A DNA stretch of 64,000 nucleotides from an uncultured Candidatus Poseidoniales archaeon (GCA_902520595.1 CABYOM010000002.1:434-64433), one strand, 5' to 3'; counted from the stretch's first letter, positions 32,494 through 61,259 are shown. The notes: generated by a model from the letters alone, not told the origin. Made by a program: numbers and translations.

Positions 32494-32503
32494 GGTGTTT
32501 TCC

Positions 32504-41069: not shown

Positions 41070-43628
41070 ATGCCTGACAACTTTGATGACTCTTTGGCTG
41101 AAGATTCTCCTCAAGAATCGATGCCTGCTCATCGTTCAGAATGGAAGCAACAGGATTTGCTAGCATCAATACTGAGTCGCTTTTTTTATCTCTCAAACAA
41201 CATGTCGGGAGGAATTCTTCCGGCATGGGCGGTATCACCTAAAGACGACAAGGAAATCGACGATTGTCTCGATGAAGCGAACGCCCACCTCAAGAAACTC
41301 GGTTGGGCTGCAAAATTATCCCAAAACGAAGGTTGGATAGTCCAACTGTTCCCTCTTCCTGAACGACAATTCCCATCACGGAATGTCACGCTGATGATGT
41401 GGACTTTTTCGGCACTAACCCTCACACTTGCAGGCGCTTATTGGATGGATGGTTCACGTCCATCTGGTGGCTGGTTTTCAGATTCTACCTTTACAGATTC
41501 TGTACTTGGATACACGCTTCCAGTTCTTGGAAGCCTTTTTGTTGCTTCACACATTCAAAAGAGGGTTGCTTCTCACTTCAATCACCGTGTTGGACACATT
41601 ACTCCAATACCTGAACCAACCATCTCTCTGTGGAGTTTGGGTTTACTTTCCCAAGCCTCTTTGGTTTGGCCATTTGGTCTCTTCCTCATACCGACCTTGC
41701 CTCGCATGGATGCTCGATTATGGGACGATCGCAAAGTCTTGGGATGGGTTGCTGTATCTGTCCCTGCCACATTGATAACTCTCGGTATGCTGTTGTGGGG
41801 ACTCGGGTTATGGCTTACCCCCGAATATGTTGCGGTTACTGGTTCGCAAAATGTGGCTCAAGCCCCCTTCTTAATCGAAATTTTAGGTCAATGGCAAATC
41901 GACGGTTATCTCAACCGGTTAATTTGGTCTCATCCATTTGTCAAAGCCGGTGCCCTGTTGACTTTTTTTGGTTGGATATCTCTTCTTCCGATACCAACCT
42001 TCCCTGGCGGCCGAATAATGATTGCTCGTGCTGGTCCATCTGAAGCCCGAAGCAGCAATAATCAAATTTTCATATTCCTCCTCATACTTGCTTTCGCCTG
42101 GATGTTTGATGCCTTCAATGGCTTTACAATTTGGATTTTTGTCCTGACATTAATTTTGCCTTTATTGCTTTTCATGGGTACGGACAGAAGTTCCCCACTT
42201 ATTCTCAACGAACCGAAGGGGCTCGACTTACCGGCGATGAAAAATATCGGATTTGTCATGCTTATCGCGGTATTATTCGCTTTACCAAGTCAGGTTCCAT
42301 TCCAAATTGATACAGAATGGAATTCTGAAGCTGAATATGATATTGATACGAATTATACTGCACTACAGATAGACGGTCAGTGGAATGCTTTGGTCTCAGT
42401 TCACGTGATGAACCCCTCTTCAGTCAACCGTGATTGGGCAGTTGACTTTGACAACCATAATCCGCATTTAGACGCTTGGGAGAGTTCGTGGGACTGTGAT
42501 GGTGAAGATTCACTCAATGTCAACGGAGGAGGTTGTGGAAGCACCTTACCGCCTCATACGCACACGACTGTCGTCCTTAACCTCACATGGAGCGAACAAT
42601 CGTTCGAACCTACGACGTTAGATTTTTCTTTGATTTCTCTCACTGAAGGTGAATATGATAGCCATGCTATTTCCATTCGCCCTGACCTTCCAGTTCATCC
42701 TGAAACTCCTTGGCAGATGTATTTTGATGAAGGCGAAATGAAACGGTGCATGGACCTTCAATCGTCTACGGATGATGTTCTGAATGTTACTTTCCCGAAT
42801 GCTGGACAAGTTTCCAATCTTCAATCTCGATTGCAGTGGATTGAAGGGTATAGCAACCTCTCGGCTAGTTTCGAACAGACTCCAGATCGCCTTTGTATAC
42901 GTGGTTTAGACCCTGTTGTATTGCGCACTTCTGAATTGGATCATGTTCAACTCAACAACTATACTTTCGATGGTGGTTTGCCTGAACTACCTTTAGTCGC
43001 TGTTGTTCCAGAAACTGGATGGAATATTACCAGTGACCCATCGCTAGGTTGGGGATTTATGCTCAATTCAAGTGGTCTTTTGAGTTCAATTGACGATCTG
43101 TGCCCACTTAACCCGTCCCTCTCAATACCTCCTTCCCCTTCAGAGGGTCAGTGGATTTGGGACCTCGATGTTCGAAAGATTTCCAATATCCCTGCTGTGG
43201 ACAACGCAAATGAATCACTCGTCGTTCAAATGTCAGACGACTCGAGTATGCATGTGTGCTCACCCGAACTTTCTGTTGAGCCGAAATTCAATTTCACTGT
43301 TGAGCAAGGTCCTGAACTGATTTTCCAACGCTACAACACCTCTCATCGAATCTGGTCGAACATGTGGATGGCCGCCCACAATGACTCCCTCATACAACCC
43401 GGAGGCGCCACATTTTCGGTCTATAGTTCAAGCAACGTATCGGTTCCTGTACAGTTGAACTATCAAGGAAATGGAGAGCAATGGACAACAGTTCTCTCAA
43501 CCAATACACTGCAATTTGGATGGAACTCATTTGAATTTGAACCATCGACGAGTAATTCTACTCTTTCGACGCTTTGGTTTGATCACCAAGATGGGGCCCT
43601 TGTCATCCATCTGTCAAGTTATGTATGA
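41070..43628 (+). CDS. polytopic membrane protein with site-2-protease (M50)-like transmembrane core lacking catalytic motifs, fused to about 450-aa N-glycosylated C-terminal ectodomain
   Basis: The C-terminal TM block GWISLLPIPTFPGGRIMIARAG...IFIFLLILAFAWMFDAF parallels the RseP/S2P NLLPIPVLDGGHLL...LFNDF region, but LDG is replaced by FPG. The N-terminal region where HExxH is expected reads VASHIQKRVASHFNHRVGH. The ectodomain is rich in N-x-S/T sequons. Confidence 0.5.
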   Translation: MPDNFDDSLAEDSPQESMPAHRSEWKQQDLLASILSRFFYLSNNMSGGILPAWAVSPKDDKEIDDCLDEANAHLKKLGWAAKLSQNEGWIVQLFPLPERQFPSRNVTLMMWTFSALTLTLAGAYWMDGSRPSGGWFSDSTFTDSVLGYTLPVLGSLFVASHIQKRVASHFNHRVGHITPIPEPTISLWSLGLLSQASLVWPFGLFLIPTLPRMDARLWDDRKVLGWVAVSVPATLITLGMLLWGLGLWLTPEYVAVTGSQNVAQAPFLIEILGQWQIDGYLNRLIWSHPFVKAGALLTFFGWISLLPIPTFPGGRIMIARAGPSEARSSNNQIFIFLLILAFAWMFDAFNGFTIWIFVLTLILPLLLFMGTDRSSPLILNEPKGLDLPAMKNIGFVMLIAVLFALPSQVPFQIDTEWNSEAEYDIDTNYTALQIDGQWNALVSVHVMNPSSVNRDWAVDFDNHNPHLDAWESSWDCDGEDSLNVNGGGCGSTLPPHTHTTVVLNLTWSEQSFEPTTLDFSLISLTEGEYDSHAISIRPDLPVHPETPWQMYFDEGEMKRCMDLQSSTDDVLNVTFPNAGQVSNLQSRLQWIEGYSNLSASFEQTPDRLCIRGLDPVVLRTSELDHVQLNNYTFDGGLPELPLVAVVPETGWNITSDPSLGWGFMLNSSGLLSSIDDLCPLNPSLSIPPSPSEGQWIWDLDVRKISNIPAVDNANESLVVQMSDDSSMHVCSPELSVEPKFNFTVEQGPELIFQRYNTSHRIWSNMWMAAHNDSLIQPGGATFSVYSSSNVSVPVQLNYQGNGEQWTTVLSTNTLQFGWNSFEFEPSTSNSTLSTLWFDHQDGALVIHLSSYV

Positions 43629-47055: not shown

Positions 47056-47222
47056 AGCATTCCTTTGTTTTGATATCTTTTGATTTGCAAGCCTTTCGGC
47101 TCGTTCAATTACATGGCCAAAACCACTGCACTGCCCCTCTCTGACTCGCATTGTTTAAGACCTGTGGGAGATGGGTGTCGAGAATAAGGTCGAAGGAAAC
47201 AACTTCGATTAGAGGGATAGGG

Positions 47223-50200
47223 ATGTATCTTCAAGCACTCGAAATATCAAACTTCAAATCGTTCAAAGGCGAAATCACCGTTCCGCTCGACCGAGGATTC
47301 ACTGCCATTACTGGGCCGAATGGTTCAGGAAAATCAAATTGTGGCGACGCGATTCAATTTGTTCTTGGCCCTCGAAGTAACAAAGTAATACGTGCTCAAA
47401 ATGCGAAAGACCTTATTTTCAACGGAGGCAAGAATTCCAAACCTGCACGTTCATGCGAAGTAACCCTTGTCTTTGCGAATCCATTACTCGCCAGCGGCCG
47501 TCGGCGCCTACCCTTAGATCAAGACGAAGTCCGTATGACCCGTGCAGTTCGACTATCGAAATCCAACAATACCATCACGACCTATTTGCTTGATGGCGAA
47601 GAAAGTACTCAAAAGACATTCCATCGACTTCTTGGCGCAGCGAACGCTCGACCAGATGGCTACAATATCGTCCTTCAAGGTGACGTTACGAAGTTGGCTA
47701 AAATGACCGCTAAAGAACGCAGAAAGGTTCTCGACGGTGTTGCTGGCGTCACATCTTATGACGATGAAATTCGAAAGGCAGACCGTCAAAAAGAGATGGT
47801 TGAAGGATACATTGAACGCATAGGGTTGCTTGAAGATGAACAAAAAGCACGTCTAAAAGACCTTACCAAAGAGAAGAACTTGGCACTCAAGGTTCAGGAT
47901 TTAGTCGCTGAACTTCAACTGGCACGAATTGTGTCTGCTCAATCGAAATTAGCAAGTCAACAATCCGAACGAGCCTACATGGTTGAAGAGCGCGTTCGAA
48001 TAGACGGCGAGGCATCCCAACTGGAAGGAGAAGTCAAAGAAGGCGCAAAAGTACTTTTAGAACTTGAAGATAAAATTGGCATCCTGCAAAAGCAAATCGA
48101 AGACCTCATGGGTGGTGATTCGAATGGATTACTAGCCGCCATTAATCAACTCCAAATTTCGATTGCCACAAGTAATGACCGCATTAGTGAAGCGGAGGAT
48201 AAAGACCTTGAGGATAAAGAAGAATTAGTTGATCTTGCTGAATCACTGCTGCAAGCACAGAATTCACTTGGAGAATTTAAACAGGAATTGAGCAGCGCTG
48301 GAACCGATTTGAAAAATGCAGTGGCTGCACTCAAAGAAGCCAAGACAGAAGAGTCTGAAGTTCAATCCCTTCTCGAGTCTTCTGGCACGGCAAATGCAGA
48401 ACTTTCACGAGCTCTTTCCATAGCGATTGCTAATGTAGAAACTGCAACAGAGACGTTGCAATTAGCACAGAATGAAGTCAACCGAGTTGCTACGCAAGCA
48501 GAAATGCTGGATGAGCAATTAACTACGGCACAAGAAGCCGCTGAAAGTGCCCGACTTGCACTGGGAGAATCACAGTTGATCGGTGAGGAACTTGGCGCGG
48601 ATTCCCCAGACCAAGATCGTCGTAAACTCGGCGACCAATTACTCACTGCACAGCGTTCTGAAGCCAAACTGGCCGAAGAGTCACAAGCCGTTGAAACTCG
48701 CTTGCGAGAGACAGAGCGAAAACTGAATACTGCGAAGAATGAACTCGAGAACCGAAGCGGTGCTAAAGGCATGGCTGGCGGTGCTGCTGCTATTATTGCC
48801 GCACGAGATCGTGGGGAATTATCTGGTGTAATCGGAACTGTTGCTGAACTTTGTCAACCACGAGACCCCGCTCACACCGACGCACTTGCAACCGCCATTG
48901 GTGGAGGTATGACTTCCGTTGTTGTCGACAACGACGAAGTCGCAGCAAAAGCCATTCAATGGCTGGCTCAAAACAAAGCAGGAAGGGCTACTTTCCTTCC
49001 TCTCAATAAACTCACTCAATCCCGTGCTGCCGGAAAGGCAATGATGGTTGCCAAAAAACCAGGTGTTATCGGTTTTGCCAATGAATTACTGGATTACGAC
49101 CCACGTATCGATGTCGCAGTTCGTTTCGTTCTACGAAACACGCTCATTGTCGATAACATGTCCACTGCACGAATGAACATGGGTGGCGTTCGATTAGTCA
49201 CTCTTCGAGGCGATGTTACGGAAGCAGGGGGTGCAATGGTCGGTGGTTCAAAGCGAAGATTGACCGTTACGTTTGGAGGAAATATTCAGGGAGCAAGTGA
49301 AGTTGAAGCCCTTGCCGCTGATGTCGAACGGTTCCGTTTGATGGCAGACACGGTCAACGGTGCGCTCGCTGATGCTCGCAGCCTTCAAACACAATTGAGG
49401 GTCAAAATCAACGCTCTTTCCGAAGGCGACCATGCCGTACGATTCCAAGAGTGGCGTGCTGAACATAAGCAAGCGCAAACAAATCACAACAATGCTCTTG
49501 GAGAAGTTGCTACCATTGAGAAGCGTTTGGTTGAACTCAAACTTGAAGGGACCAATAAAATCCGTGAACATGACCAAGCTCATCAGGGACTGTCAACTGC
49601 GAATGAACAACGCTCTGTTGCTCAAACGGCCTTAGAAGATGCAAGTCCTGAACACCTCAAAGATCGATTACATGCTGCTGAAGTAAAGCGAGTTGAAGCT
49701 GAAGGCCTCAAAGCACAAGCAGAGATTTCTCTGAATGGTGATTCAAGCCATCAAGAACTTTTGAGCAGTCGAGTTGATGAAATTACACAACGAATTACTT
49801 TGCTCGAAGGGAACGCAATTGCCCGAAGTGAAAAAATTGATTCGTTGCAAGCAAGCATAGCAACTGATTCTATAGAGCTCAAGAAAAAAGAAGACGAACG
49901 CTTCCAATTCCTAGAAGAGAACCAAGGCCTTGAGGAAGAGCGTGTTGAATTAATCGAAGAGCGAAGCGGTTTACACGTCACACTTCAGCAAAAAGCAACC
50001 GATGCACGTTCACGACGTGTCATGGTTGAAGAAATGGGCCGTGCTCTGATATTGAAAGATGCATCCATTCAAGAAACGCTGCAGGAAATGGCAGAAAACA
50101 ACATTGAGGCGGCTGGTGAAGATGTCGTATTACCGAGTGTAGGCGACGCTGAACGTACTGAGCGTACATTGCAACGTAGACTTGATTCACACGGCCCAGT

Positions 50201-51137
50201 CAATATGCTGGCTATTGAACAATATGATGCATGCGAAGCCCGTCTCTCTGAAATGAAAGGCGATTTCAAAACGCTTCAAGACCGACGCAAGCATCTTATC
50301 GATGTCACCGAGAAACTTGAAAGTCAACGAAAGTCACGTCTTCTCAATGTTCTTGAAAAGGTCAATGAGAATTTCAAAGTTGCCTACAAGTCTCTCAGTG
50401 ACGGTGGAAGAGGTGAATTGTTCCTTGAAAATAAGGATGAACCGTTCAAAGGCGGACTGGAGTTATGGGCGCAACCTCGAGGCAAGTCAGCGAAAGTTAC
50501 TCGCCATCAACTTTCAGGGGGCGAGCAATCCATGGCTGCTCTTGCGCTTATTTTCGCAATTCAAGATTATGACCCGAGTCCATTCTACTACTTTGACGAA
50601 GTTGATCAGAATTTGGACGGTTACAATGCCGAGCGAATCGCACTGATGTGCAGAGAGCGCAGCAAGAGAGCACAATTCATCATGGTGACACTGCGAAAGG
50701 TTTCCTTGCGTCTGGCTGACCATCACATTGGAATTACTCACGGTGGCGATGGATGCAGCCGAAGAATCGTTGACTTCGACCGTGATCAAGCGATTGCTCT
50801 TGGTGAACAAGCCCTTGCGGAGGCTGAGAAGGCAGAGAAGATGGTTCGTTCACGAATTGAAGAAGCCTCAGCAGCAGCGTACGATATGCCCGAGGTCCCA
50901 GAACCATTACCAACGCCGAATAGCCTTGGTGGATTGCTTAACCACATGCTGGCTGCCGAAGCCGAACAAGCTCCAGAACCAGAGGCAAGTATTGGGTTAA
51001 CTGCGCTTTCAGAGCGAACAGCCGACATGACAGAAGATATCGAAGAATACGCTGAAGTAGCCCAAGCTATTCAAGCGGTAGAAGCCGAAGAACAAACGGT
51101 TGAAGAGACTACAGAAGCCGAGGAAGAAACAGTTTGA
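47223..51137 (+). CDS. smc: chromosome segregation protein SMC
   Basis: N-terminal Walker A ITGPNGSGKSN with the start MYLQALEISNFKSFKG. Long coiled coils. A hinge with G-rich motifs. C-terminal signature motif LSGGEQS and Walker B FYYFDEVD. An acidic tail of about 90 aa follows. Confidence 0.9.
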   Translation: MYLQALEISNFKSFKGEITVPLDRGFTAITGPNGSGKSNCGDAIQFVLGPRSNKVIRAQNAKDLIFNGGKNSKPARSCEVTLVFANPLLASGRRRLPLDQDEVRMTRAVRLSKSNNTITTYLLDGEESTQKTFHRLLGAANARPDGYNIVLQGDVTKLAKMTAKERRKVLDGVAGVTSYDDEIRKADRQKEMVEGYIERIGLLEDEQKARLKDLTKEKNLALKVQDLVAELQLARIVSAQSKLASQQSERAYMVEERVRIDGEASQLEGEVKEGAKVLLELEDKIGILQKQIEDLMGGDSNGLLAAINQLQISIATSNDRISEAEDKDLEDKEELVDLAESLLQAQNSLGEFKQELSSAGTDLKNAVAALKEAKTEESEVQSLLESSGTANAELSRALSIAIANVETATETLQLAQNEVNRVATQAEMLDEQLTTAQEAAESARLALGESQLIGEELGADSPDQDRRKLGDQLLTAQRSEAKLAEESQAVETRLRETERKLNTAKNELENRSGAKGMAGGAAAIIAARDRGELSGVIGTVAELCQPRDPAHTDALATAIGGGMTSVVVDNDEVAAKAIQWLAQNKAGRATFLPLNKLTQSRAAGKAMMVAKKPGVIGFANELLDYDPRIDVAVRFVLRNTLIVDNMSTARMNMGGVRLVTLRGDVTEAGGAMVGGSKRRLTVTFGGNIQGASEVEALAADVERFRLMADTVNGALADARSLQTQLRVKINALSEGDHAVRFQEWRAEHKQAQTNHNNALGEVATIEKRLVELKLEGTNKIREHDQAHQGLSTANEQRSVAQTALEDASPEHLKDRLHAAEVKRVEAEGLKAQAEISLNGDSSHQELLSSRVDEITQRITLLEGNAIARSEKIDSLQASIATDSIELKKKEDERFQFLEENQGLEEERVELIEERSGLHVTLQQKATDARSRRVMVEEMGRALILKDASIQETLQEMAENNIEAAGEDVVLPSVGDAERTERTLQRRLDSHGPVNMLAIEQYDACEARLSEMKGDFKTLQDRRKHLIDVTEKLESQRKSRLLNVLEKVNENFKVAYKSLSDGGRGELFLENKDEPFKGGLELWAQPRGKSAKVTRHQLSGGEQSMAALALIFAIQDYDPSPFYYFDEVDQNLDGYNAERIALMCRERSKRAQFIMVTLRKVSLRLADHHIGITHGGDGCSRRIVDFDRDQAIALGEQALAEAEKAEKMVRSRIEEASAAAYDMPEVPEPLPTPNSLGGLLNHMLAAEAEQAPEPEASIGLTALSERTADMTEDIEEYAEVAQAIQAVEAEEQTVEETTEAEEETV

Positions 51138-52982: not shown

Positions 52983-54281
52983 TTACTCTTTTCGCAATTG
53001 TTCCAACAGTTCACCAACAAGAGTTTGTGTTTTAGGACCAGATGCTTGCTGTAAGCGTGCGGCTACAATTTCAATTTCTTCACCGACTGCGCCAGCAGAA
53101 ACCGCCATGTTACGTGAATGTAATTTCATGTGCCCTGCCTGAATACCTTTCGTTGAAAGGGCTCGAAGAGCTCCTAAGTTCTGAGATAATCCTGCTGCAG
53201 CGATGATTCCAGCCAATTCCTGGGCCGATTCAACCCCGAGTATGGCAAGATTCGCTTGAGCGACAGGATGGACCTTGGAGGCGCCTCCAACAGTGCCTAC
53301 AGCCATGGGCGTCTCGATAGAGCCAACGAGGTTTCCTTCAGCATCCTTTTCCCACATGGTCATTGAACCATACTGTTCGTTGCTGTGAGCAGCCCATGCA
53401 TGGCATCCTGCCTCGATAGCACGCCAATCTTGTCCACAAGCCACTGCAACGCTGCTAATCGCATTCATGACGCCTTTATTGTGCGTAGCCGCTCGAAATG
53501 GGTCTGCCATGGCAAAGTGTTGCGCTTCAAGGATGCCCTCAATGACAGTAAGGCCGTTTTCACGTGTTCCATCCTCTGAAATTTCTTCAGGGGTAAAGAC
53601 GGCACGAACACGAGCCAAACGGTATGCTGCGAGGTTGGAGAGAATTCGCAGATGAACTCTTCCACCGGTGATATCTTCCAGGCGTGGTGCAATCAATTCC
53701 GCCATCGTGTTAACGGCATTCGCCCCCATCGCATCTCGACAATCAACCACGATGTGGGCGATAAGCATCGGACCGCTAAGAGAATCAAGAAGACGGGTTT
53801 CGATACGCTTACATCCACCACCGAGTCGAATCATGGTTGAAGGAAGGCTGTTACACAAATCCATCAATTCTTTCGCACTCGAAAGCACAGCCTGCTCGGC
53901 CTTTTTCCAGTCACTGCACTCCAATATCTGCAATTGTGCAATCATCATTGGGGCGTCTGAATTCGTATGAAATCCACCGTTTTTCAAGCAACGTTTGGCC
54001 ATATTTGAGGCTGCAGCGACCACACTTGACTCTTCCAAGCAGAAAGGAATGAGGTAGTGCTTTCCATCGATGACGAAGTTGGTTGCAACGCCGACAGGAA
54101 GTGACATTGTTCCAATTACATTCTCTATCATGCGATCTGCGGCCTCTTCACTTAACGCGCCACAGGCTTCCAGTGCAGCGATTTGCTGATCAGTAAGATC
54201 GGCCATATCCGCAACGATTTGTCGGCGTTCAGCAACGCTGTGTCGGAAAAATCCACTCAAGCGACTGTTTTCGACCGGCAT
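52983..54281 (-). CDS. hmgA: hydroxymethylglutaryl-CoA reductase (NAD(P)H), class II-like
   Basis: SRLSGFFRHSVAERR N-terminal block, ENVIGTMSLPVGVA, DAMGANAVNTMAE, and the C-terminal GTVGG/His region. About 430 aa, consistent with class II. The start is probably the internal Met MPVENS. Confidence 0.75.
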   Translation of the reverse strand: MPVENSRLSGFFRHSVAERRQIVADMADLTDQQIAALEACGALSEEAADRMIENVIGTMSLPVGVATNFVIDGKHYLIPFCLEESSVVAAASNMAKRCLKNGGFHTNSDAPMMIAQLQILECSDWKKAEQAVLSSAKELMDLCNSLPSTMIRLGGGCKRIETRLLDSLSGPMLIAHIVVDCRDAMGANAVNTMAELIAPRLEDITGGRVHLRILSNLAAYRLARVRAVFTPEEISEDGTRENGLTVIEGILEAQHFAMADPFRAATHNKGVMNAISSVAVACGQDWRAIEAGCHAWAAHSNEQYGSMTMWEKDAEGNLVGSIETPMAVGTVGGASKVHPVAQANLAILGVESAQELAGIIAAAGLSQNLGALRALSTKGIQAGHMKLHSRNMAVSAGAVGEEIEIVAARLQQASGPKTQTLVGELLEQLRKE

Positions 54282-54379
54282 ACGTCCACGTCCAGTTGTC
54301 CCACGTGGCTGTAGACCATCAAGCAATCGGCATTAAGGCCATTGAAAACGTCGCTTTCCATTTTTCTGAGTGAAGTGCG

Positions 54380-54430
54380 AATGTTGAGGTTAATAACGCG
54401 TTTAACGCTTTTATTAACGCGTTAAGAATG
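54380..54430. promoter_or_regulatory. cluster of AACGCGTT-core palindromes (TTAATAACGCGTTTAACGC / TTATTAACGCGTTAAG) in a divergent intergenic region
   Basis: A perfect 12-bp palindrome TTAACGCGTTAA at about 54413-54424 and an imperfect copy at about 54391-54404. Additional GTTAAC, TAACGC and GAATG repeats are present through 54340-54500. Confidence 0.35.
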
Positions 54431-54524
54431 CGGTAATTGAATGTTAACGACTGTTTCCCAACAGAGGTGGCAATGAGATTAACATGTCCTAACGCATCTC
54501 TAAGGCCTGCTTTCATGCTCAAAG

Positions 54525-56399
54525 ATGAAATACCCAAAGGCGATTGCTCGAATCATGCGAGTTGTTGGAAAAGATATGACCCTACCTCCTCTTGATGCGA
54601 ATCCATTCTCAGCTTTAGCCCTCGAAGCGAGTGATTCTAACCTCTTAGTCGGGCGTCAGCACACGCTTCGAGTGCTTTCCCAATACATACAGTTCCGATC
54701 ACCTCGCAGGATTTTATTGGTTGGCGAACATGGTTCAGGAAGGACCTCACTGCTTCGCTGTGTCTCGAAGATGTCACCAATCGCAGTCCATATTGACCAT
54801 ATTCCACCTAGAGATGCAGGGCTTAGTTTGTTGAAAGATATCTATTCTCGATTTGTGAATTCTATTGTCCCTGAAAATCGGAATGAATTAACAAAGAAGA
54901 TACTGGATGCATCACAGAGTTATACCAATGCTTTGCCTCTCATCGTCATCGATGCATCAACGGTTGAAATTTCTGCGCTCAATGTGGCTCTGCGAGACAC
55001 TTTACCTACTCTTGAGCGAATTCAAGCAGTGATTGTTATCGTTCTTGAGACCAAGGATAAAACCATGCTCCACGAATCAATTTTACAGAAATTAGACCAG
55101 ATGAAACCCCTGGCGAACCTCAATTTAGAGGAGGTTCAACTTTTGGTAGAGCGACGTATTGAACAGTCAACGGGTCAACAGTTTCAGTTCAATCAAGAAG
55201 ATGCTCAACACCTTCTGGAACAGACTTTAGGTCTGCCTTCCGATGTAATCCGGGTCATGCGTGACGCAATTGACCATGCGAAAATGTCTCAATATACCTA
55301 TGTTGAACCGCAATACACGTCCACCAAACCCGTATCAGAGCCACTTTTCGATGCTTCATTGTTTGAATCACCTCCGCATTCATCGTTTGAATCAGTGCTT
55401 TCAGAGCCTGCCAAGGCACTGGATACGGTTGAGGAAGAACCAGAAGTTGATGAAGCAGCACTGCAGATGGAGCAGGATACCAAAATTATGGAAAGTCTTG
55501 AAGATATGAATTTTGATCTTAACCTTGACCAGTTGAATGAAGACCAAGATAATCAAGAAGAACTGAAAATATTAGAGTCTGTTGAAGACCTTCAGGAAGG
55601 TTACGGTGCGGCACCTGCGATTGCCAAACCCGATGTCCATGAACGCCCACCCCTCGACGAACTTACGCCCGCAGGGATGACTGGCCTTTTCTCACGTAGT
55701 CGCTCTTTCCTTGACTTGGAACAGGATGATGCACCACAAGCGAACCTGGTCGAACAGGCAGGCGGTGTTGAACTCTGGGAAGATCCTTCTTTACAGCCGG
55801 CTGAAGAAGTCGTTGAAGAGATCAGTGAAGAGGAATCTGCCTACATGCTTCACAATGAAGTGGGGTTCATCGAGGAAGAACCTGTGGAAGTTGAATTCGA
55901 GGAGCTGCAGACTGATATGGAGGCAGTTGAAGACGATTTCGAACTTGATTTCGACACTCCCTCCATCGGTAATGGACTGTTGAGTGAATTAGCAGGTATG
56001 GTACCGGTAATGAAAGCGCTGCAATTAGCTATCATGACTCCAGATGAGAACGGAACTGCGATTCAGAGAAGAAAATTGGTTGAAGCACTTGAAGCATTTC
56101 AACGAAAACCAAGCGGTAAAAAGCAAGATTATGCGCTCAATGCAGCGGTTCTGTCTGCCTTAACCGGTCATGAAATCGCCATAATATCAATTGCTCATTA
56201 CCGAAGATATTCACCATCAGATGAAGAATTGCTCCAACAATTGAACATCAAGCGAGCAAGGCTTTCTCAAATCAGCAACCGATTACTGAAAGCAGGTGTT
56301 TTGAGTGTTCGAACACTCGGACGTAACAGATACTACGAATTAACCCAAGCAGCTCGAGCCCAATTGATTGCTTGGAATGTGATAGGAGGTGAAAACTGA
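54525..56399 (+). CDS. divergent Orc1/Cdc6-like AAA+ protein with Walker-A Lys replaced by Arg, long acidic insert and C-terminal winged helix
   Basis: LLVGEHGSGRTSLL (GSGRT instead of GSGKT). Walker B-like LIVIDAS. The order of blocks parallels Orc1/Cdc6 (AVHID, IQAVIVIVLE, LNLEEVQLLVERRIEQ, SDVIRVMRDAIDHA). A D/E-rich low-complexity region of about 230 aa follows. The C-terminal RYYELTQAARAQLIAW is wHTH-like. Confidence 0.5.
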   Translation: MKYPKAIARIMRVVGKDMTLPPLDANPFSALALEASDSNLLVGRQHTLRVLSQYIQFRSPRRILLVGEHGSGRTSLLRCVSKMSPIAVHIDHIPPRDAGLSLLKDIYSRFVNSIVPENRNELTKKILDASQSYTNALPLIVIDASTVEISALNVALRDTLPTLERIQAVIVIVLETKDKTMLHESILQKLDQMKPLANLNLEEVQLLVERRIEQSTGQQFQFNQEDAQHLLEQTLGLPSDVIRVMRDAIDHAKMSQYTYVEPQYTSTKPVSEPLFDASLFESPPHSSFESVLSEPAKALDTVEEEPEVDEAALQMEQDTKIMESLEDMNFDLNLDQLNEDQDNQEELKILESVEDLQEGYGAAPAIAKPDVHERPPLDELTPAGMTGLFSRSRSFLDLEQDDAPQANLVEQAGGVELWEDPSLQPAEEVVEEISEEESAYMLHNEVGFIEEEPVEVEFEELQTDMEAVEDDFELDFDTPSIGNGLLSELAGMVPVMKALQLAIMTPDENGTAIQRRKLVEALEAFQRKPSGKKQDYALNAAVLSALTGHEIAIISIAHYRRYSPSDEELLQQLNIKRARLSQISNRLLKAGVLSVRTLGRNRYYELTQAARAQLIAWNVIGGEN

Positions 56400-57448
56400 T
56401 GTCATGGTCGATTACTTGGTCTTGGCAAGCACCTCGCCGTATTGCTGCCCTCGCACCAGTCGAGGGTGGAATGGTTGTGAGCAGTGGTCTGGATTTGTTG
56501 ATGATTGAAGCGGATGGAAGTATTCGCTGGAAGGTAGAATTACCGTTCAAAGCACACTGCGCTCAAGCCAATAACGGCGTATTAGGTATTCTCGCGGCTC
56601 ATGGATTCTACGTTCTTTCGACTTTAGACGGGACAATGTTACACGAAGGTCGTTCGACTACAGGCGGCTTTACTGAGATTCTAGCACGCCCTGGAGGCGG
56701 TTGGATACTCTCTGGGCGCCAAGGGCACCTTCACTTGTTTACACACGAAGGAACAGGCCTTCGTAGGCTCGACAGCGGAAAAGTGCGACGTTTGCTGGGT
56801 TGGCTTGACCGTGAACACATGATGTGGCAGGATTCAGACGGCAAACTTTGGTGTGCTCGACTTGCACAAAGCGATCAAAAGCGAATCTTAGAAGACCGCG
56901 TTTGGAGTTGGGTTACACCTTTGATGAATGGACGGATTCTCATGCAGTCAAGTGATGGCGGGATTTGGGAGGGCGTTCCTCATCCATTTGGCTGGGATTC
57001 TTTGGAACGAATCGAATATGAATCACTCGAACCAATGGAAGGTGTTCGAAGCGCTGATGGCTGGTGGGTTTTGGGTATTGAAGGCCACTTGCACCACCTT
57101 TCGGCTCATGCAGAAAGCGAAACGCCAACTTTGTTAGGCGAATCGATGAATCTTGGTGACTTGCTGATTGGTTTGACGCCGGACACGATGGTTACGGCAA
57201 CTCGAGAAGGATTGATTCGCCGCTGGTCTGCTCCTCATCTGGCTCAGGCCGAACGTCAAGGACGCTATCAAGCGGCTGCAGAGGCAGCATTAGCGAAGAA
57301 TTGGGAAGAGCGAAAGGCCTTGTTTGTCCGTGCACAAACCGCTGAAGATGAAGGACGATTGTCTAGGGCGGTGGAACTGTATGGTGCACTTGGCCGCTCA
57401 GAAGATGTCCGTCGTTTGTTGAAGCGCCAAAAGGAGGGAGGAGAGTGA
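56399..57448 (+). CDS. beta-propeller-like repeat protein (PQQ/WD-like), hypothetical
   Basis: Its ATG overlaps the stop of the preceding gene (TGATG). It has repeated G/W-containing strand motifs (DGSIRWKVEL, DGKLWCARL, DGGIWEGV, DGWWVLGIEGHLHHL). Confidence 0.35.
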   Translation: MSWSITWSWQAPRRIAALAPVEGGMVVSSGLDLLMIEADGSIRWKVELPFKAHCAQANNGVLGILAAHGFYVLSTLDGTMLHEGRSTTGGFTEILARPGGGWILSGRQGHLHLFTHEGTGLRRLDSGKVRRLLGWLDREHMMWQDSDGKLWCARLAQSDQKRILEDRVWSWVTPLMNGRILMQSSDGGIWEGVPHPFGWDSLERIEYESLEPMEGVRSADGWWVLGIEGHLHHLSAHAESETPTLLGESMNLGDLLIGLTPDTMVTATREGLIRRWSAPHLAQAERQGRYQAAAEAALAKNWEERKALFVRAQTAEDEGRLSRAVELYGALGRSEDVRRLLKRQKEGGE

Positions 57449-57456
57449 GTGAAGAT

Positions 57457-57744
57457 ATGGAGCACGTCACCCGTGAAAGGGTTGAGAAATACTTGGACAT
57501 TACTCGCCGGGCTCGTAAAAAGGCCACTCCATTAACTCAAGAGGGATCTGAACAAGCACAACACTTGGCGACCATGATGCGAATGGCAGATGATTACGCT
57601 TCTGACGCTGCCCATTTTCTCTCAATAGGTGACCATGTTCGAGCTTTTGGCGCCATCAACTATGCACATGCATGGATTGATGCTGGCGTAAAAATAGGTC
57701 TTTTAGACGGTCACGGGGATGATGTTCTTTTTACTCTGCCGTAA
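57457..57744 (+). CDS. small conserved archaeal protein, DUF357-like
   Basis: About 95 aa with ...DDYASDAAHFLSIGDHVRAFGAINYAHAWIDAG... (the GD...A...YAH.W.DAG pattern). Its start overlaps the previous stop. Confidence 0.4.
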   Translation: MEHVTRERVEKYLDITRRARKKATPLTQEGSEQAQHLATMMRMADDYASDAAHFLSIGDHVRAFGAINYAHAWIDAGVKIGLLDGHGDDVLFTLP

Positions 57745-57767
57745 TTCTAGACCCGCTAGTATCTTTT

Positions 57768-58151
57768 CTATAGAGGTTCAACCAGTTCAAGACGCTGATT
57801 TTTACTGACTTCAAGTATTGGCAGACCCTGCTGGTAAAATCGGCGTTTCAGTTCAACATCCACAGTAAGCACAGGCAGTGATTGCTCGACTGCTAACTCA
57901 AATATTTGATCATCTGGATGATCTGAATTATCTGTGAGAGGTCGAACAGGTTGTGATTTTTGCTCCAGAAGCGACAGCAAGAGATTCTTGCTTCTCGGTC
58001 GTTGTTGATTGAGACTTTCTAATTCATCCCGAACACTGTCAAGCAAGAGCATTTGAGCAGGTCCATACACTCGTGAAAGTTCAGTATCGATATTCATGCC
58101 TGAATCAATGATTGCAACCCATCCACAGGCGTCAATCAGTATTTGTTGCAC
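57768..58151 (-). CDS. PIN-domain protein (putative ribonuclease) adjacent to aIF2-gamma
   Basis: N-terminal ILIDACGWVAI with an acidic residue in the canonical PIN position, and further conserved acidic residues (DSVRDE, DD). About 127 aa, typical PIN size. Confidence 0.4.
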   Translation of the reverse strand: MQQILIDACGWVAIIDSGMNIDTELSRVYGPAQMLLLDSVRDELESLNQQRPRSKNLLLSLLEQKSQPVRPLTDNSDHPDDQIFELAVEQSLPVLTVDVELKRRFYQQGLPILEVSKNQRLELVEPL

Positions 58152-58178
58152 TCCACATCACCTTGAATGGCTCGATGT

Positions 58179-59417
58179 TCACTGAATTGTTCCGTAGCCA
58201 ATGAGTCGCCATCGTGAGCCAACTCGTCGAGAAAGAGAGACCCGCTGGCCAGTGTCTGCACAGATAGGGAGTCGCAAATCGAGTGTAGCTCTGCCTTTCT
58301 CTGAGTTCTTTGTAACGCCAACAGAGGTTGCAGTAGCCACGTTAATCATCAACATCTCATTGTTTCGCAAAGGATAGATTTTCTCAGGTTCTTCACCTTC
58401 TCCGGCAACCATGTTCTCCATCAGTTTGACTTCAACAGAAACAGAATGTCTGACTTCTGGCAAATCGCCTTTTCGAGCGACGACTTGACCTGAGAGATTG
58501 TCTGCAGTCGTGATTGATGGGTCCAGCATTGTAGCCATTCCACACAATCCGCCTGAATGCATTGATTCAAGATCGAGGCCACCACCTTTCATGCTGCTAA
58601 CTGTTGCTTCAATCGGCTCCCATATTGCCTTTGAGCCCTTTTCGATTTTTCTTCCAGGGCCAATAATGATTTCATCACCAACATCGAAGTTCCCTTCAAT
58701 GATGCTTCCACCGATAACGCCTCCACGTAATTTTGCTGGGCGTGTCCCTGGACGATTGATGTCGAACGAACGAGCAACGTGCATAATTGAACGCTTATCC
58801 TTTGAGCGGTCAGGTGTTGGAATTGTTTTCTCAATAGCATCGATGAGGATGTCCAAATTAACATCGTGATGTGCTGAGACTGGAATAATCGGCGCTTTGT
58901 CTGCAATTGTTCCTTCGAGGAATGTCTTGATTTCAGCATGAGATTCAAGCGCACGTTCTTTCGTGACCAGATCTATTTTGTTCTGAACGATAACGATGTT
59001 TTCGATACCAGCAATTTCCAGTGCCATAAGGTGTTCACGAGTTTGGGGTTGCGGGCAAGTTTCGTTCGCTGCTACCATGAGCATAGCGCCGTCCATAATC
59101 GAAGCACCCGTGATCATAATTGCCATCAGTGTTTCGTGACCGGGAGCATCAACAAATGAAATGACTCTTTCCAGTTCCTTTGGTTCGTCGTCTTTGCCGT
59201 CAGGATGACGTCCAGTGGCGTAGTATTGACCTTTTTTTGTCTTGTAGAAAGCGGTGTCGGCGTATCCAAGTTTGATAGAAATACCACGCTTTCTTTCTTC
59301 AGAGTGTGTGTCGGTCCAAACTCCAGAAAGAGCCTGAGTGAGTGTTGTTTTACCGTGGTCGACGTGACCAACTAAACCGATGTTGATTTCAGGTTGTGCC
59401 GGAAGCTTTCGTGCCAT
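58179..59417 (-). CDS. eif2g: translation initiation factor 2 subunit gamma (aIF2-gamma)
   Basis: GTPase motifs GHVDHGKTTL, DAPGH and NKID, a zinc-knuckle Cys pair, and EF-Tu-like domains II and III. 412 aa. Confidence 0.9.
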   Translation of the reverse strand: MARKLPAQPEINIGLVGHVDHGKTTLTQALSGVWTDTHSEERKRGISIKLGYADTAFYKTKKGQYYATGRHPDGKDDEPKELERVISFVDAPGHETLMAIMITGASIMDGAMLMVAANETCPQPQTREHLMALEIAGIENIVIVQNKIDLVTKERALESHAEIKTFLEGTIADKAPIIPVSAHHDVNLDILIDAIEKTIPTPDRSKDKRSIMHVARSFDINRPGTRPAKLRGGVIGGSIIEGNFDVGDEIIIGPGRKIEKGSKAIWEPIEATVSSMKGGGLDLESMHSGGLCGMATMLDPSITTADNLSGQVVARKGDLPEVRHSVSVEVKLMENMVAGEGEEPEKIYPLRNNEMLMINVATATSVGVTKNSEKGRATLDLRLPICADTGQRVSLSRRVGSRWRLIGYGTIQ

Positions 59418-60023: not shown

Positions 60024-61259
60024 TCAGTGAAACTTCTTTTTCAGCAACATTTCAAGCCGACTTGCGAGGTCTTTTGGAAGATAATGTGGCATACTCAGGT
60101 GTGTTGTCCTTCCTCTTCCGCCGGTAATTGTAGCGACTCTTGAGGCGATAATTTGGCGTTCTTCAAATTCTTTTAGATATTTCCAAACCGTTGTATGGCT
60201 CTTCATTTTCTGCTCATATTCTTCACAGACAACGGCATAAAGTTGCTCGACATCTCCGGTGGTCATCGATTCCTGCTTTGACAATCTCCGGCATAAGCAG
60301 AGCAACACCAACATCGCGTTTGGGTTGAGGTCATCAATGTGTTCAAGGTTGCTTCCTGCTGTTGTTGGGGAGTTTTCCAGCGGGACATGAATATCTTCAA
60401 CGGTGAGCCTGCGTTCACTGTGGTCATCTTGCCGAAATTCACAACGTTCAACAGCGGCGTTCAGCAATTCAATCACTCTTCGTGCATCGCCTGTTGGGGC
60501 GGCTTTTTCTGAGAGTAGACGGATGATTTCTGGCGTCCACGTTCCTGGGACCAAACCATCGATTGCTCGTTGCGTAGCAATGGCCTCAAGTCCTTCGGTT
60601 GTGTATGGTGGTATGCGAAGGTGATTTGTACTTCCCATTCGAGATATAACGGCTGTTTCAAGAACATCCAGAACTTGTTCTTGGCTGATGAGAATAAGCG
60701 ACAGCGTTCCTTTACCGCTTTGGTCTTCATCAATACGAAGCAATTGGTAAAGCAAGTCATCACCCGAACGACGGAGCATGTGATCAACCTCGTCAAGAAC
60801 GACAATCAGGTGAGATGTTTCCTTTCGTAGGATCCGCCTCAGGCTCATCAATAATTCACCCATCGACAGTCCCCGGTCTGGATGTCCCGGTGCTAATTCA
60901 TGCAAAATACGCTGAACAACTCGCATACTTGTTGAAGCATTACGGCAGTTGACGTGGACTGAACGAATGTTACGCTTCTTTGCCAAGTGGCGTTCAATGT
61001 CACGGCAGAAGGTTCGTGCAAGCACCGTTTTACCAGAACCAACGGGCCCAGTAATGACGACTCTTCCAGCTCCTTCAGGCAAGTGTAAGGTCGTGAATTT
61101 AGCCGCTAATTCGTTTTGTACCTCTTCACGTCCAACAATTTCTTTTGGGATGTAATCAAAATTGAACACATCTGGATTTGCAAGAACCCATCCAGCGCCA
61201 ATTCGGTCGAGGTAGTTACTCATAACATCGGAAGGCTTACGCCAACCGTTATTGAACAT
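60024..61259 (-). CDS. cdc6: Orc1/Cdc6 replication initiator (canonical)
   Basis: Walker A ITGPVGSGKT, Walker B LIVVLDEVDHM, sensor regions, and a C-terminal winged helix. The start may be an internal Met (MSNYLDRI). Confidence 0.85.
   Translation of the reverse strand: MFNNGWRKPSDVMSNYLDRIGAGWVLANPDVFNFDYIPKEIVGREEVQNELAAKFTTLHLPEGAGRVVITGPVGSGKTVLARTFCRDIERHLAKKRNIRSVHVNCRNASTSMRVVQRILHELAPGHPDRGLSMGELLMSLRRILRKETSHLIVVLDEVDHMLRRSGDDLLYQLLRIDEDQSGKGTLSLILISQEQVLDVLETAVISRMGSTNHLRIPPYTTEGLEAIATQRAIDGLVPGTWTPEIIRLLSEKAAPTGDARRVIELLNAAVERCEFRQDDHSERRLTVEDIHVPLENSPTTAGSNLEHIDDLNPNAMLVLLCLCRRLSKQESMTTGDVEQLYAVVCEEYEQKMKSHTTVWKYLKEFEERQIIASRVATITGGRGRTTHLSMPHYLPKDLASRLEMLLKKKFH

What the first reader, a model, noticed from the sequence alone, without database searches (positions are those of the whole stretch)
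54525..57744. Translationally coupled operon headed by a degenerate Orc1/Cdc6-like AAA+ (Walker A K->R, 230-aa acidic insert, wHTH), then a beta-propeller and a DUF357-like protein
The 624-aa protein follows the Orc1/Cdc6 block order but has GSGRT instead of GSGKT, a huge D/E-rich low-complexity insertion and a C-terminal winged helix. A canonical Orc1/Cdc6 with intact motifs lies 3.6 kb away at 60024-61259. The two downstream genes overlap stop and start codons (TGATG at 56397-56401; TGAGTGA... at 57445), which argues that the three function as a unit. This could be an origin-associated or transcription-regulatory Orc paralogue that has lost ATP hydrolysis, analogous to the WhiP/Orc1-3-type divergent initiators. 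Alternatively it could be a new ATPase-wHTH regulator family.
Basis: partly seen in the sequence, partly recalled or inferred. Interest (0 to 1): 0.6.

Follow-up and report, generated by a model that had tools for sequence, protein, structure and literature searches.

The report
Hydrolysis-dead Orc-like DNA-binding ATPase with iterons
Marine Group II archaea all carry an uncharacterised DNA-binding protein, distantly related to replication-initiator ATPases but with a crippled ATPase site, whose gene is always preceded by a conserved array of short DNA repeats that it most likely binds.

Summary
There are three tightly packed + strand genes: a 624-aa P-loop/winged-helix protein with GSGRT, a 349-aa beta-propeller and a DUF357 protein. 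A canonical Orc1/Cdc6 gene lies 3.6 kb away.

The N-terminal module is homologous to the Orc1/Cdc6 AAA+ base and lid (hhalign 95%; best fold matches 2qby and 1fnn). It fails every curated Orc1/Cdc6 test. Its winged helix is ArsR/SmtB-like. Its closest intact relatives are about 360-aa ExeA-like AAA+/winged-helix proteins of DPANN archaea.

The family is found across Poseidoniales. The Walker A residue is R in 47 of 54 cluster representatives and K in 7. Walker B never has the catalytic Glu. I therefore infer that nucleotide is bound but not hydrolysed.

Only the ATPase-to-DUF357 adjacency is conserved across the order. The propeller lies between them in MGIIa-type lineages and is absent from that position in all 80 MGIIb loci.

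New finding: the intergenic region upstream (54390-54498) holds an array of GCGTTAA/TTAACGC repeats with an 11-bp period. All 67 related loci examined have it, and it is essentially confined to that spot. The DPANN relatives have analogous TTCACGTGAA arrays upstream of their genes.

Best reading: a non-hydrolysing protein that binds its own iteron array and acts as a regulator. An origin-type role is not excluded.

The parts
54390..54498 (.). Array of GCGTTAA / TTAACGC repeats (consensus AAWGCGTTAAT, 11-bp period). It includes the perfect palindrome TTAACGCGTTAA at 54414-54425 and distal copies at 54481-54486 and 54490-54496.
   Evidence: Five core copies fall in this 200-bp intergenic region, against 0.08 expected per 200 bp from the window's own density. 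This is the densest spot in the 64 kb. The equivalent region has 5-9 copies in each of 67 related loci. In 49 MGIIb loci, 239 of 270 occurrences of the 7-mer lie within 400 bp upstream of the gene.
54520..54534 (+). Conserved promoter-like box (C/G)AAA(G/C)A(T/A)NA(A/T)ATAC. It ends about 21 nt before ATG 54555, which suggests a TATA/BRE-type element for a leaderless or short-leader transcript.
   Evidence: Alignment of 11 MGIIa intergenic regions. The promoter function is inferred.
54525..56399 (+). Gene for the AAA+-like / acidic linker / winged-helix protein. The longest ORF gives 624 aa. The probable true start is 54555, giving 614 aa.
54639..55298 (+). AAA+ base and lid module (residues ~39-258). 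The P-loop GEHGSGRTS is residues 67-75 (nt 54723-54749) and the Walker B LPLIVID-A is residues 137-144 (nt 54933-54956). The sequence LEEVQLLVERR and the lid motif GLPSDVIRVMRDAID parallel the Orc1 sequence GDARRVIELLNAAVE.
55299..55994 (+). Acidic, predicted disordered linker (residues ~259-490). Its length varies between homologues. It has conserved islands at FDLNLDQL (330-337), GMTGLFSRSRSF (383-394, R391 invariant) and GVELWED (414-420, W418).
56142..56372 (+). C-terminal winged helix-turn-helix (residues ~540-616) of ArsR/SmtB type. It is the most conserved part of the protein (SPSD...R.RLSQI.N.L...G.L..R..GR.R).
56399..57448 (+). Gene for a beta-propeller (residues 1-277, about 27 strands) with a C-terminal helical, TPR-like tail (279-346). 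In the context look-ups it was found only in Poseidoniales contigs, always between the ATPase gene and the DUF357 gene.
57445..57744 (+). DUF357 (arCOG01224) gene. It is the last gene of the operon and lies immediately downstream of the ATPase gene in MGIIb.
52983..54326 (-). HMG-CoA reductase gene, transcribed divergently from the other side of the repeat array. Included as context and as a possible co-regulated neighbour.
60024..61259 (-). Canonical Orc1/Cdc6 gene (context). It sits inside a Dph2-Orc1-S6e-aIF2gamma-PIN gene string with almost no flanking non-coding DNA.

Best explanation
The first gene encodes a member of an undescribed, Poseidoniales-wide protein family. It has an initiator-type AAA+ module (base plus lid, related to ExeA-like and Orc1/Cdc6 ATPases), a variable acidic disordered linker with a few conserved short motifs, and an ArsR/SmtB-like winged helix.

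The P-loop glycines, a positive residue (R, rarely K), the Ser/Thr and the Walker B Asp are all strictly conserved. The Walker B Glu is absent throughout the family. I therefore infer that the module still binds a nucleotide but hydrolyses it poorly or not at all. It would then act as a static or slow oligomerisation switch rather than a motor.

I further infer that the winged helices of an oligomer bind the 11-bp-phased GCGTTAA/TTAACGC array just upstream of the gene's own promoter. This would set expression of its operon (itself and DUF357, plus the propeller in MGIIa) and possibly of the divergent HMG-CoA reductase gene. The acidic linker would recruit partners, the co-encoded propeller being one candidate, or would auto-inhibit DNA binding.

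Shown here: homology, motif conservation, the operon layout, and the existence, specificity and conservation of the array. Inferred: nucleotide binding without hydrolysis, binding of the protein to the array, and the regulatory outcome.
For: Family and conservation.
- All context hits are Poseidoniales: 178 protein hits and 178 GTDB loci.
- GSGRTSLLRC is invariant in MGIIa.
- Walker A is R in 47 and K in 7 of 54 cluster representatives. The K forms sit in small clades nested among R forms, so a positive charge is required at that position.
- D143 is invariant and is never followed by E.

Homology.
- Against a Poseidoniales Orc1 profile, hhalign gives 95.3%, E 2.4e-8, covering base and lid.
- Against DPANN ExeA-like/winged-helix proteins with intact GxGKT and DEAHE, it gives 99.4%, E 3.7e-21.
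- The top Foldseek hits are Orc1/Cdc6 and ORC. The C-terminus matches ArsR/SmtB repressors with TM 0.65-0.73.

The array.
- It is unique within the window and is present in 67 of 67 loci examined, from both MGIIa-type (window, L001, L002) and MGIIb genomes.
- Spacing of 11 bp occurs 118 times, with a distal copy in phase at 77 bp.
- It is confined to the 400 bp upstream of this gene across 49 loci of about 14 kb each.
- It lies just upstream of a conserved promoter-like box.

Independent parallel. The DPANN relatives carry TTCACGTGAA palindromes directly upstream of their genes. There are 7 to 10 copies in L203, L206 and L207, where every copy in the locus lies in that region (0.35 copies per locus expected by chance in L203). 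One of the L203 copies is a TTCACGTTAA hybrid site.
Against: - There is no experimental or covariation evidence that this protein, rather than another factor, binds the array. Both the recognition helix and the motif are invariant, so co-evolution cannot be tested.
- The whole 12-kb block is syntenic across the order, so adjacency alone is weak evidence of a functional link.
- The AF2 model of the ATPase is mediocre (pLDDT 59, with the P-loop itself below 50).
- Nucleotide binding is inferred only from conservation.
- Sites upstream of a TATA box could equally belong to the HMG-CoA reductase promoter.
- The DPANN arrays are far larger (about 500 bp, next to RadA, RPA and RNR genes) and look more like origins than operators.
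Confidence: 0.45

Rival explanations
1. Origin-type module. The repeat array would be an ORB-like element of a chromosomal replication origin, or a relic of one. The protein would be a non-hydrolysing initiator-like factor that marks or regulates it, alongside the canonical Orc1/Cdc6 encoded 5.5 kb away.
For: - An initiator-clade AAA+ plus winged helix encoded next to arrays of a dyad repeat is the classic archaeal origin layout (established knowledge).
- The canonical orc1 gene has no adjacent non-coding DNA, and this is the largest intergenic region in the conserved block.
- The DPANN relatives sit beside 500-585-bp non-coding regions packed with 7-10 palindromes, flanked by RadA, RPA, NrdR/RNR and histone genes.
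- In MGIIb loci this intergenic region averages 12 GC points below the locus.
Against: - The motif does not resemble known ORB or mini-ORB consensus sequences (my own knowledge).
- There is no consistent AT-rich unwinding stretch. The 77-bp spacer is AT-rich in L043 but not in L013 or in the window.
- Gene orientation in the window switches convergently at 57.75 kb, not divergently here, and the changes in skew sign follow gene strand.
- The array is short (about 110 bp).
- Raymann et al. 2014 place an MGII sequence in the canonical Cdc6/Orc1-2 cluster (PMC3914693), and a canonical Orc1/Cdc6 gene lies in this window.
Confidence: 0.2
2. The array is the operator of a different transcription factor, for example one controlling HMG-CoA reductase and isoprenoid lipid synthesis. 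The AAA+/winged-helix protein would act elsewhere, as a chromatin, segregation or scaffold hub using its acidic linker.
For: - The array lies between two divergent genes.
- The locus is next to SMC-ScpA-ScpB in all loci.
- The linker carries conserved short motifs typical of partner binding.
Against: - The DPANN relatives, which have no HMG-CoA reductase neighbour, also carry a related dyad array upstream of the homologous gene.
- The array copies extend to within about 25 bp of the gene's own promoter-like box.
Confidence: 0.15
3. Split STAND-like signalling NTPase. The ATPase/winged-helix protein would be the nucleotide-binding oligomerisation module, and the propeller with its TPR-like tail would be its separately encoded sensor.
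For: - Ten of 19 members give weak nSTAND1 Pfam hits.
- Apaf-1 appears among the Foldseek hits (rank 36).
- A propeller plus helical repeats is the typical STAND sensor (established knowledge).
- The stop and start codons of the two genes overlap.
Against: - The propeller is absent from the locus in all 80 MGIIb genomes, while the ATPase is retained.
- Orc1/Cdc6 and ORC matches rank well above STAND proteins.
- The winged helix is separated from the lid by about 230 disordered residues.
- There are no PADLOC hits.
- The locus is a single-copy gene in a housekeeping synteny block.
Confidence: 0.07
4. Artefact or decaying gene. The K->R change would be a sequencing error, or the ORF would be a degenerating Orc1/Cdc6 pseudogene.
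For: None beyond the degenerate Walker motifs.
Against: - R is present in 47 of 54 cluster representatives.
- The reading frame is intact and conserved across an entire order at 23-96% identity.
- The P-loop and winged helix are strongly conserved.
Confidence: 0.01

Closest known systems
Archaeal Orc1/Cdc6 initiators (PDB 2qby, 1fnn; TIGR02928)
   Same: The domain order is AAA+ base, lid, then winged helix. The base and lid are homologous at profile level. These proteins are the best structural matches. Two helices lie between beta2 and beta3, as in the initiator-specific motif. The gene sits next to a repeat array.
   Different: No curated Orc1 model is hit. Walker A has R, Walker B has no Glu, and the GDAR sensor-2 Arg is not conserved in MGIIa. 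A 230-aa acidic linker is inserted. The winged helix is of ArsR type, not Cdc6_C. The repeat motif is unlike ORB.
ExeA/GspA-like AAA_22 ATPases (COG3267, TIGR03015), specifically the ~360-aa DPANN 'AAA family ATPase' with a C-terminal winged helix
   Same: These are the closest sequence relatives (hhalign 99.4%, E 3.7e-21). They share the N-terminal NPF...VG(R/Y) motif, the lid motif G.PR..I and a C-terminal winged helix. Dyad-repeat arrays lie directly upstream of the gene.
   Different: The DPANN proteins keep GxGKT and DEAHE, have no acidic linker, use a different repeat (TTCACGTGAA) and have different neighbours (LigT, RNR, RadA, RPA). No member of this archaeal group has been characterised, as far as my literature searches show.
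ArsR/SmtB-family winged-helix repressors (BigR 3pqj, HlyU, NolR, SqrR, CzrA)
   Same: The C-terminal ~85 residues have the same fold (TM 0.65-0.73, probability 1.0). There is weak sequence similarity. Palindromic operators are typical of this family.
   Different: The match is below curated cut-offs. Here the winged helix is fused to an AAA+ module. Metal- or thiol-sensing residues were not examined.
Orc1-2 of Sulfolobales acting as a DNA-damage transcription regulator (recalled from the literature, not checked here)
   Same: It is a precedent for an Orc1/Cdc6-type protein used as a transcription factor rather than an initiator.
   Different: Orc1-2 is a canonical Orc1/Cdc6 paralogue with intact motifs.
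BamB / WD40-type beta-propellers
   Same: The 349-aa protein has this fold.
   Different: It hits no WD40 or PQQ sequence family. It is cytoplasmic and archaeal, and it carries a C-terminal helical tail.
DUF357 / arCOG01224 (PDB 2oo2, 2pmr)
   Same: The 99-aa protein is a clear member.
   Different: In archaea generally this family is linked to DUF555 and TagD (PMC6393860). The linkage to the ATPase gene is specific to Poseidoniales.

Membership tests
Orc1/Cdc6 (archaeal initiator) | Scores above the curated family model (TIGR02928 / PRK00411) | tested here: not met
   No Orc1 model appears at E<=1. The neighbouring true Orc1 scores 206 bits.
Orc1/Cdc6 (archaeal initiator) | AAA+ base and lid homologous to Orc1/Cdc6 | tested here: met
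   hhalign 95.3%, E 2.4e-8, 212 columns. The top Foldseek hits are 2qby_A, 1fnn_A and 2qby_B. The module is nevertheless closer to the ExeA-like group.
Orc1/Cdc6 (archaeal initiator) | Intact Walker A (GKT/S) and Walker B (DE) | tested here: not met
   The motifs are GSGRT and IVIDA. Glu is absent in all 31 diverse members.
Orc1/Cdc6 (archaeal initiator) | C-terminal Cdc6_C winged helix (PF09079) | tested here: not met
   There is no Pfam hit. hhalign of the C-terminus against the Orc1 WH gives 1.3% probability.
Orc1/Cdc6 (archaeal initiator) | Initiator-specific helical insertion between beta2 and beta3 | tested here: inconclusive
   The AF2 model has two helices (98-110 and 119-131) between strands 86-90 and 138-143. 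This rests on a predicted model of only moderate confidence.
Orc1/Cdc6 (archaeal initiator) | Binds ORB elements at an origin | not testable with these tools
   A repeat array is adjacent, but neither binding nor origin activity can be computed. GC skew over 64 kb is uninformative.
ExeA-like AAA_22 + winged helix (DPANN group) | Profile-level homology over the ATPase, including the N-terminal NPF motif | tested here: met
   hhalign 99.4%, E 3.7e-21, 223 columns. These proteins are the first out-family hits of the HMM search.
ExeA-like AAA_22 + winged helix (DPANN group) | Pfam AAA_22 above the gathering score, with intact GKT and DExx | tested here: not met
   AAA_22 scores 21.9 bits against a cut-off of 27. 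The motifs are degenerate.
ArsR/SmtB winged helix | wHTH fold of ArsR/SmtB type | tested here: met
   Foldseek probability 1.0, TM 0.65-0.73 to HlyU, NolR, SqrR and CzrA.
ArsR/SmtB winged helix | Curated sequence model (NF033788) | tested here: not met
   17.6 bits against a cut-off of 55.
STAND NTPases | NACHT/NB-ARC-type NTPase with a contiguous helical/WH module and fused repeats | tested here: not met
   There are only sub-threshold nSTAND1 hits. Apaf-1 ranks 36th. The repeats are on a separate gene that MGIIb lacks at this locus.
Beta-propeller (349-aa protein) | Propeller fold | tested here: met
   pLDDT 87.5 with about 27 strands. Foldseek E 6e-13 to BamB.
DUF357 (99-aa protein) | Pfam PF04010 above the gathering score | tested here: met
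   75.2 bits against a cut-off of 29.4. PDB 2pmr and 2oo2 match at E about 7e-7.

The most novel reading that the evidence does not exclude
The GCGTTAA array together with the R-P-loop AAA+/winged-helix protein would be an origin-type, initiator-and-iteron module. The same would hold for the larger TTCACGTGAA arrays next to the intact DPANN homologues, which are flanked by RadA, RPA and RNR genes. This would mean a second, ExeA-related lineage of archaeal origin-binding proteins distinct from Orc1/Cdc6. In Poseidoniales it would be frozen in a nucleotide-bound, non-hydrolysing state, acting as an origin marker or regulator.
Probability: 0.18. Interest if true: 0.8.

Novelty: new variant of a known kind. 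Interest (0 to 1): 0.55.

Why it matters
Marine Group II archaea are among the most abundant planktonic archaea and remain uncultured, and almost nothing is known of how they control DNA transactions. This locus supplies three concrete, testable things.

1. An order-wide, single-locus protein family that is absent from Pfam and NCBIfam. It is a natural example of an initiator-type AAA+ fixed with Arg in Walker A and without the catalytic Glu.
2. A sharply defined cis-element, an 11-bp-phased array of AAWGCGTTAAT. It is conserved even though the neighbouring protein has diverged to about 25% identity.
3. A link to an uncharacterised DPANN family with an even larger dyad array in a neighbourhood of replication and repair genes.

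If the protein binds the array, it would be, to my knowledge, the first defined regulator-and-operator pair for MGII. If the array is an origin, it would point to a non-Orc1 origin-binding lineage in archaea.

Tried and rejected
- A profile search of the whole family against PDB sequences gave nothing significant. The best hits were a designed LRR protein and BigR at E about 0.01.
A narrower MGIIb alignment, A5, worked.
- GC skew and a gene-orientation map of the 64-kb window were uninformative. The changes in skew sign follow gene strand. The cumulative minimum near 20 kb coincides with a 476-bp intergenic region that has no repeat structure. I rejected this as evidence for or against an origin.
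- A metagenome scan for three tandem GCGTTAA(N4) units returned 120 hits. Eighteen were this Poseidoniales locus. The remainder that I inspected (33 of 102) were unrelated 11-bp microsatellites and a repeat from a eukaryote-like contig. The scan therefore says nothing about other Poseidoniales sites.
- PADLOC gave no defence-system match and Rfam gave no RNA family in 54000-58200.
- Literature searches for Poseidoniales with Cdc6, and for archaeal ExeA winged-helix proteins, returned nothing.
- Sequencing error as the cause of K->R was rejected on conservation.


Full report
**1. The observation**

The region holds three co-oriented ORFs: 54525-56399 (624 aa), 56399-57448 (349 aa) and 57445-57744 (99 aa). 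The stop and start codons overlap as described. TGATG lies at 56397-56401 and is preceded by GGAGGTGA. GTGA lies at 57445-57448 and is preceded by AAAGGAGGGAGGAG, and an alternative in-frame ATG lies at 57457.

The neighbours are:
- ScpA and ScpB upstream (the 1328-aa ORF at 47151-51137 just before them was not scanned; in L001 and L002 the corresponding gene carries SMC_N and SMC_hinge domains);
- a divergent HMG-CoA reductase gene;
- downstream on the other strand, PIN, aIF2-gamma, S6e, a canonical Orc1/Cdc6 (TIGR02928 206 bits against a cut-off of 181; Cdc6_C and Cdc6_lid present) and Dph2.

The organism is a Marine Group II archaeon (Poseidoniales). On protein identities to L001 it is of the Poseidoniaceae/MGIIa type.

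**2. The 624-aa protein**

Pfam gives only sub-threshold AAA_16 (28.7 bits) and AAA_22 (21.9 bits) hits. NCBIfam gives weak ArsR/BigR hits at residues 563-616 and no Orc1 model at all. A family profile finds nothing significant among PDB sequences.

The AF2 model is mediocre overall (pLDDT 59), but its parts are clear:
- a P-loop alpha/beta domain and helical lid (residues ~39-258), with two helices between beta2 and beta3;
- a disordered stretch (259-~490);
- a winged helix (540-616).

Foldseek against the PDB ranks archaeal Orc1/Cdc6 first (2qby_A at E 3e-4, then 1fnn_A and 2qby_B), followed by ORC2 and ORC5. Apaf-1 and RuvB come far lower. The C-terminus matches ArsR/SmtB repressors with TM 0.65-0.73.

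Profile-profile comparison gives the following results.

| Query | Target | Probability | E-value |
|---|---|---|---|
| N-terminal module | Poseidoniales Orc1 profile (212 columns, base and lid) | 95.3% | 2.4e-8 |
| N-terminal module | ~360-aa archaeal AAA_22/ATPase_2 + winged-helix proteins | 99.4% | 3.7e-21 |
| Orc1 profile | the same ~360-aa group | 98.9% | 3.2e-17 |
| C-terminal domain | Orc1 winged helix | 1.3% | 0.041 |

The alignment to Orc1 includes the stretch that pairs GLPSDVIRVMRDAID with the Orc1 sequence GDARRVIELLNAAVE.

The ~360-aa relatives are annotated as ExeA-like or 'AAA family ATPase' in Aenigmarchaeota, Nanoarchaeota and other DPANN. They best match TIGR03015 rather than Orc1. 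They keep GxGKT and DEAHE, and they share the N-terminal NPF...VG(R/Y) motif.

So the protein belongs to the broad initiator-like AAA+ assemblage. It is not an Orc1/Cdc6 family member, and its winged helix is of a different type.

**3. The degenerate ATPase site is a family trait**

An exhaustive HMM search finds 152 cluster representatives at E<=1e-3. Eighty-three of them score E<=1e-10. The full-length ones are 507-1012 aa long.

Among 54 full-length representatives, the Walker A residue is R in 47 and K in 7. In a rough NJ tree the K forms sit in three or four small clades nested among R forms. This suggests that R is ancestral and K was regained, and that a positive charge is required at this position.

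G67, G70, G72, S75 and D143 are invariant in 31 diverse members; S71 and the Arg/Lys and Ser/Thr that follow G72 are kept in nearly all. The residue after D143 is never Glu.

From the conserved phosphate-binding and Mg-binding residues and the missing catalytic Glu, I infer nucleotide binding without efficient hydrolysis.

The linker is 28% D+E and varies greatly in length. It keeps conserved islands at FDLxLD, GxFxGLxxRxR (R391 invariant) and ELW (W418). These look like partner-binding motifs (inference).

**4. Is the operon a unit?**

Within Poseidoniaceae-type contigs the order ATPase, propeller, DUF357, with overlapping junctions, is conserved down to 35-39% identity of the ATPase.

In all 80 Thalassarchaeaceae/MGIIb loci from GTDB genomes, the ATPase gene is followed directly by DUF357 and no propeller is present at the locus. 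The surrounding block (ScpA-ScpB, HMGR, PIN-aIF2gamma-S6e-Orc1-Dph2) is unchanged.

The propeller is confidently modelled (pLDDT 87.5), with best matches to BamB and WD40 proteins and a helical tail at 279-346. It is more conserved than the ATPase. It is a lineage-restricted insertion or loss.

DUF357 is one of the archaeal core single-copy genes (PMC12680538). Across archaea it is linked to DUF555 and TagD (arCOG01224; PMC6393860). Its pairing with the ATPase is therefore specific to Poseidoniales.

Because the whole block is syntenic across the order, adjacency alone is weak evidence of a joint function. The overlapping stop and start codons do argue for co-transcription.

**5. A new element: the upstream repeat array**

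The 198-bp intergenic region contains TTAATAACGCGTT, TTAACGC, the palindrome TTAACGCGTTAA (54414-54425), degenerate copies and two distal copies.

- The core CGTTA(A/G) occurs 25 times in the 64-kb window, and five of these are here. This is the densest 200 bp in the window.
- The equivalent region of all 67 related loci examined has 5-9 copies.
- The consensus is AAWGCGTTAAT. Same-orientation spacing is 11 bp in 118 cases. A distal copy lies in phase at 77 bp (seven units of 11) in 28 cases. The orientation pattern (> < < > > ... >) is stereotyped.
- In 49 MGIIb loci of about 14 kb, 239 of 270 occurrences of GCGTTA(A/G) lie within 400 bp upstream of the ATPase gene. No other position, including the orc1 flanks, is enriched.
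- In MGIIa the array is followed by a conserved box (C/G)AAA(G/C)A(T/A)NA(A/T)ATAC that ends about 21 nt before ATG 54555. This suggests that 54555 is the true start and that the transcript is leaderless (inference). The ATG at 54525 lies inside the box and is not conserved.

**6. An independent parallel in DPANN**

In six loci carrying the intact DPANN relatives, TTCACGTGAA palindromes (one mismatch allowed) sit directly upstream of the gene.

- In L203, L206 and L207 there are 7, 10 and 7 copies. All copies in each locus fall inside a 500-585-bp non-coding region. In L203, 0.35 copies per locus are expected by chance.
- L204 has two copies upstream, L205 one and L208 five; in each, one lies 25-36 bp before the start.
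- L204 also has GGCGTGAAA repeated at an 11-bp spacing.
- MGIIb loci carry a GCGTGAATATT variant next to the start codon.
- Hybrid TTCACGTTAA sites occur in DPANN.
- The DPANN neighbourhood is conserved: NrdR/RNR, LigT and an OB-fold protein upstream, and PRC, RadA and RPA downstream.

Two distant lineages of the same protein clade therefore each have a dyad-repeat array in front of the gene. This is the strongest, though still indirect, evidence that these proteins bind their own upstream DNA.

**7. Mechanism**

The most likely mechanism is as follows. The protein binds nucleotide but does not hydrolyse it. It oligomerises through its AAA+ module. It places its ArsR-like winged helices on the phased array, and this controls its own operon and possibly the divergent HMG-CoA reductase gene. 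The acidic linker recruits partners or modulates DNA binding. I put confidence in this at about 0.45.

The main rival is an origin-type role (about 0.2). It is favoured by the initiator-like architecture, by the lack of non-coding DNA around the canonical orc1 gene, and by the origin-like look of the DPANN regions. It is weakened by four points:
- the array is short;
- the motif is unlike ORB;
- there is no consistent unwinding element;
- the skew and gene orientation in the window are uninformative or unfavourable.

Lesser rivals are that another factor binds the array, that the system is a split STAND-like one, or that the gene is an artefact.

**8. Novelty**

No curated family covers the protein, sources call it hypothetical, and literature searches found nothing on it. 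In kind it is an AAA+/winged-helix DNA-binding protein of the initiator-like group. It has a distinctive combination of features: Arg in the P-loop, no catalytic Glu, a long acidic linker with conserved motifs, an ArsR-type winged helix and a conserved iteron array. I rate it a new variant of a known kind, of moderate interest. The interest would be higher if the origin reading proved true.

Noticed in passing
window 32471-34849 (+): The A/V-type ATPase subunit I (PF01496) carries an inserted EF-hand pair at residues 347-404 (PF13499, 36 bits, above the gathering score). A calcium-binding insert in an archaeal A-ATPase stator subunit seems unusual.
   Followed up: no
window 24803-27754 (-) and 41070-43628 (+): Two large ORFs (983 aa and 852 aa) have no Pfam hit at 1e-5.
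   Followed up: no
L203 4415-5001; L206 2487-3001; L207 2460-3001 (DPANN contigs): These 500-585-bp non-coding regions are packed with 7-10 TTCACGTGAA palindromes and many CTTCAC half-sites. They lie upstream of an ExeA-like AAA+/winged-helix gene and are flanked by NrdR/RNR, LigT, RadA and RPA genes. They are candidate replication origins or heavy operators in Aenigmarchaeota-type genomes.
   Followed up: partly
window 54525-54557: The annotated longest-ORF start (ATG 54525) lies inside a conserved promoter-like box and is not conserved in L001 or L002. ATG 54555 is the likely start, giving a 614-aa protein.
   Followed up: yes
L100, L118, L127 versus L095, L187 (metagenome contigs): In L100, L118 and L127 a propeller only 38-42% identical to the window's lies between the ATPase gene and the DUF357 gene (or downstream of the ATPase gene where the contig ends). 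L095 and L187, whose ATPase is about equally similar to the window's, lack it. The propeller has therefore been gained or lost more than once, or very early.
   Followed up: partly
L083, L085, L088, L089, L093, L094, L096, L113, L163: A recurrent, unrelated repeat also contains GCGTTAAT direct copies followed by TTAACGC inverted copies. It occurs on contigs that look eukaryotic; L113, the one contig checked, has WD40 exon-like ORFs. The motif resemblance to the Poseidoniales array is probably coincidental.
   Followed up: partly
window 14888-14897: An isolated palindrome GCGTTAACGC lies here. By the ORF map it falls inside the long ORF at 14536-15564 (-). It is made of the same half-site as the array.
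   Followed up: no
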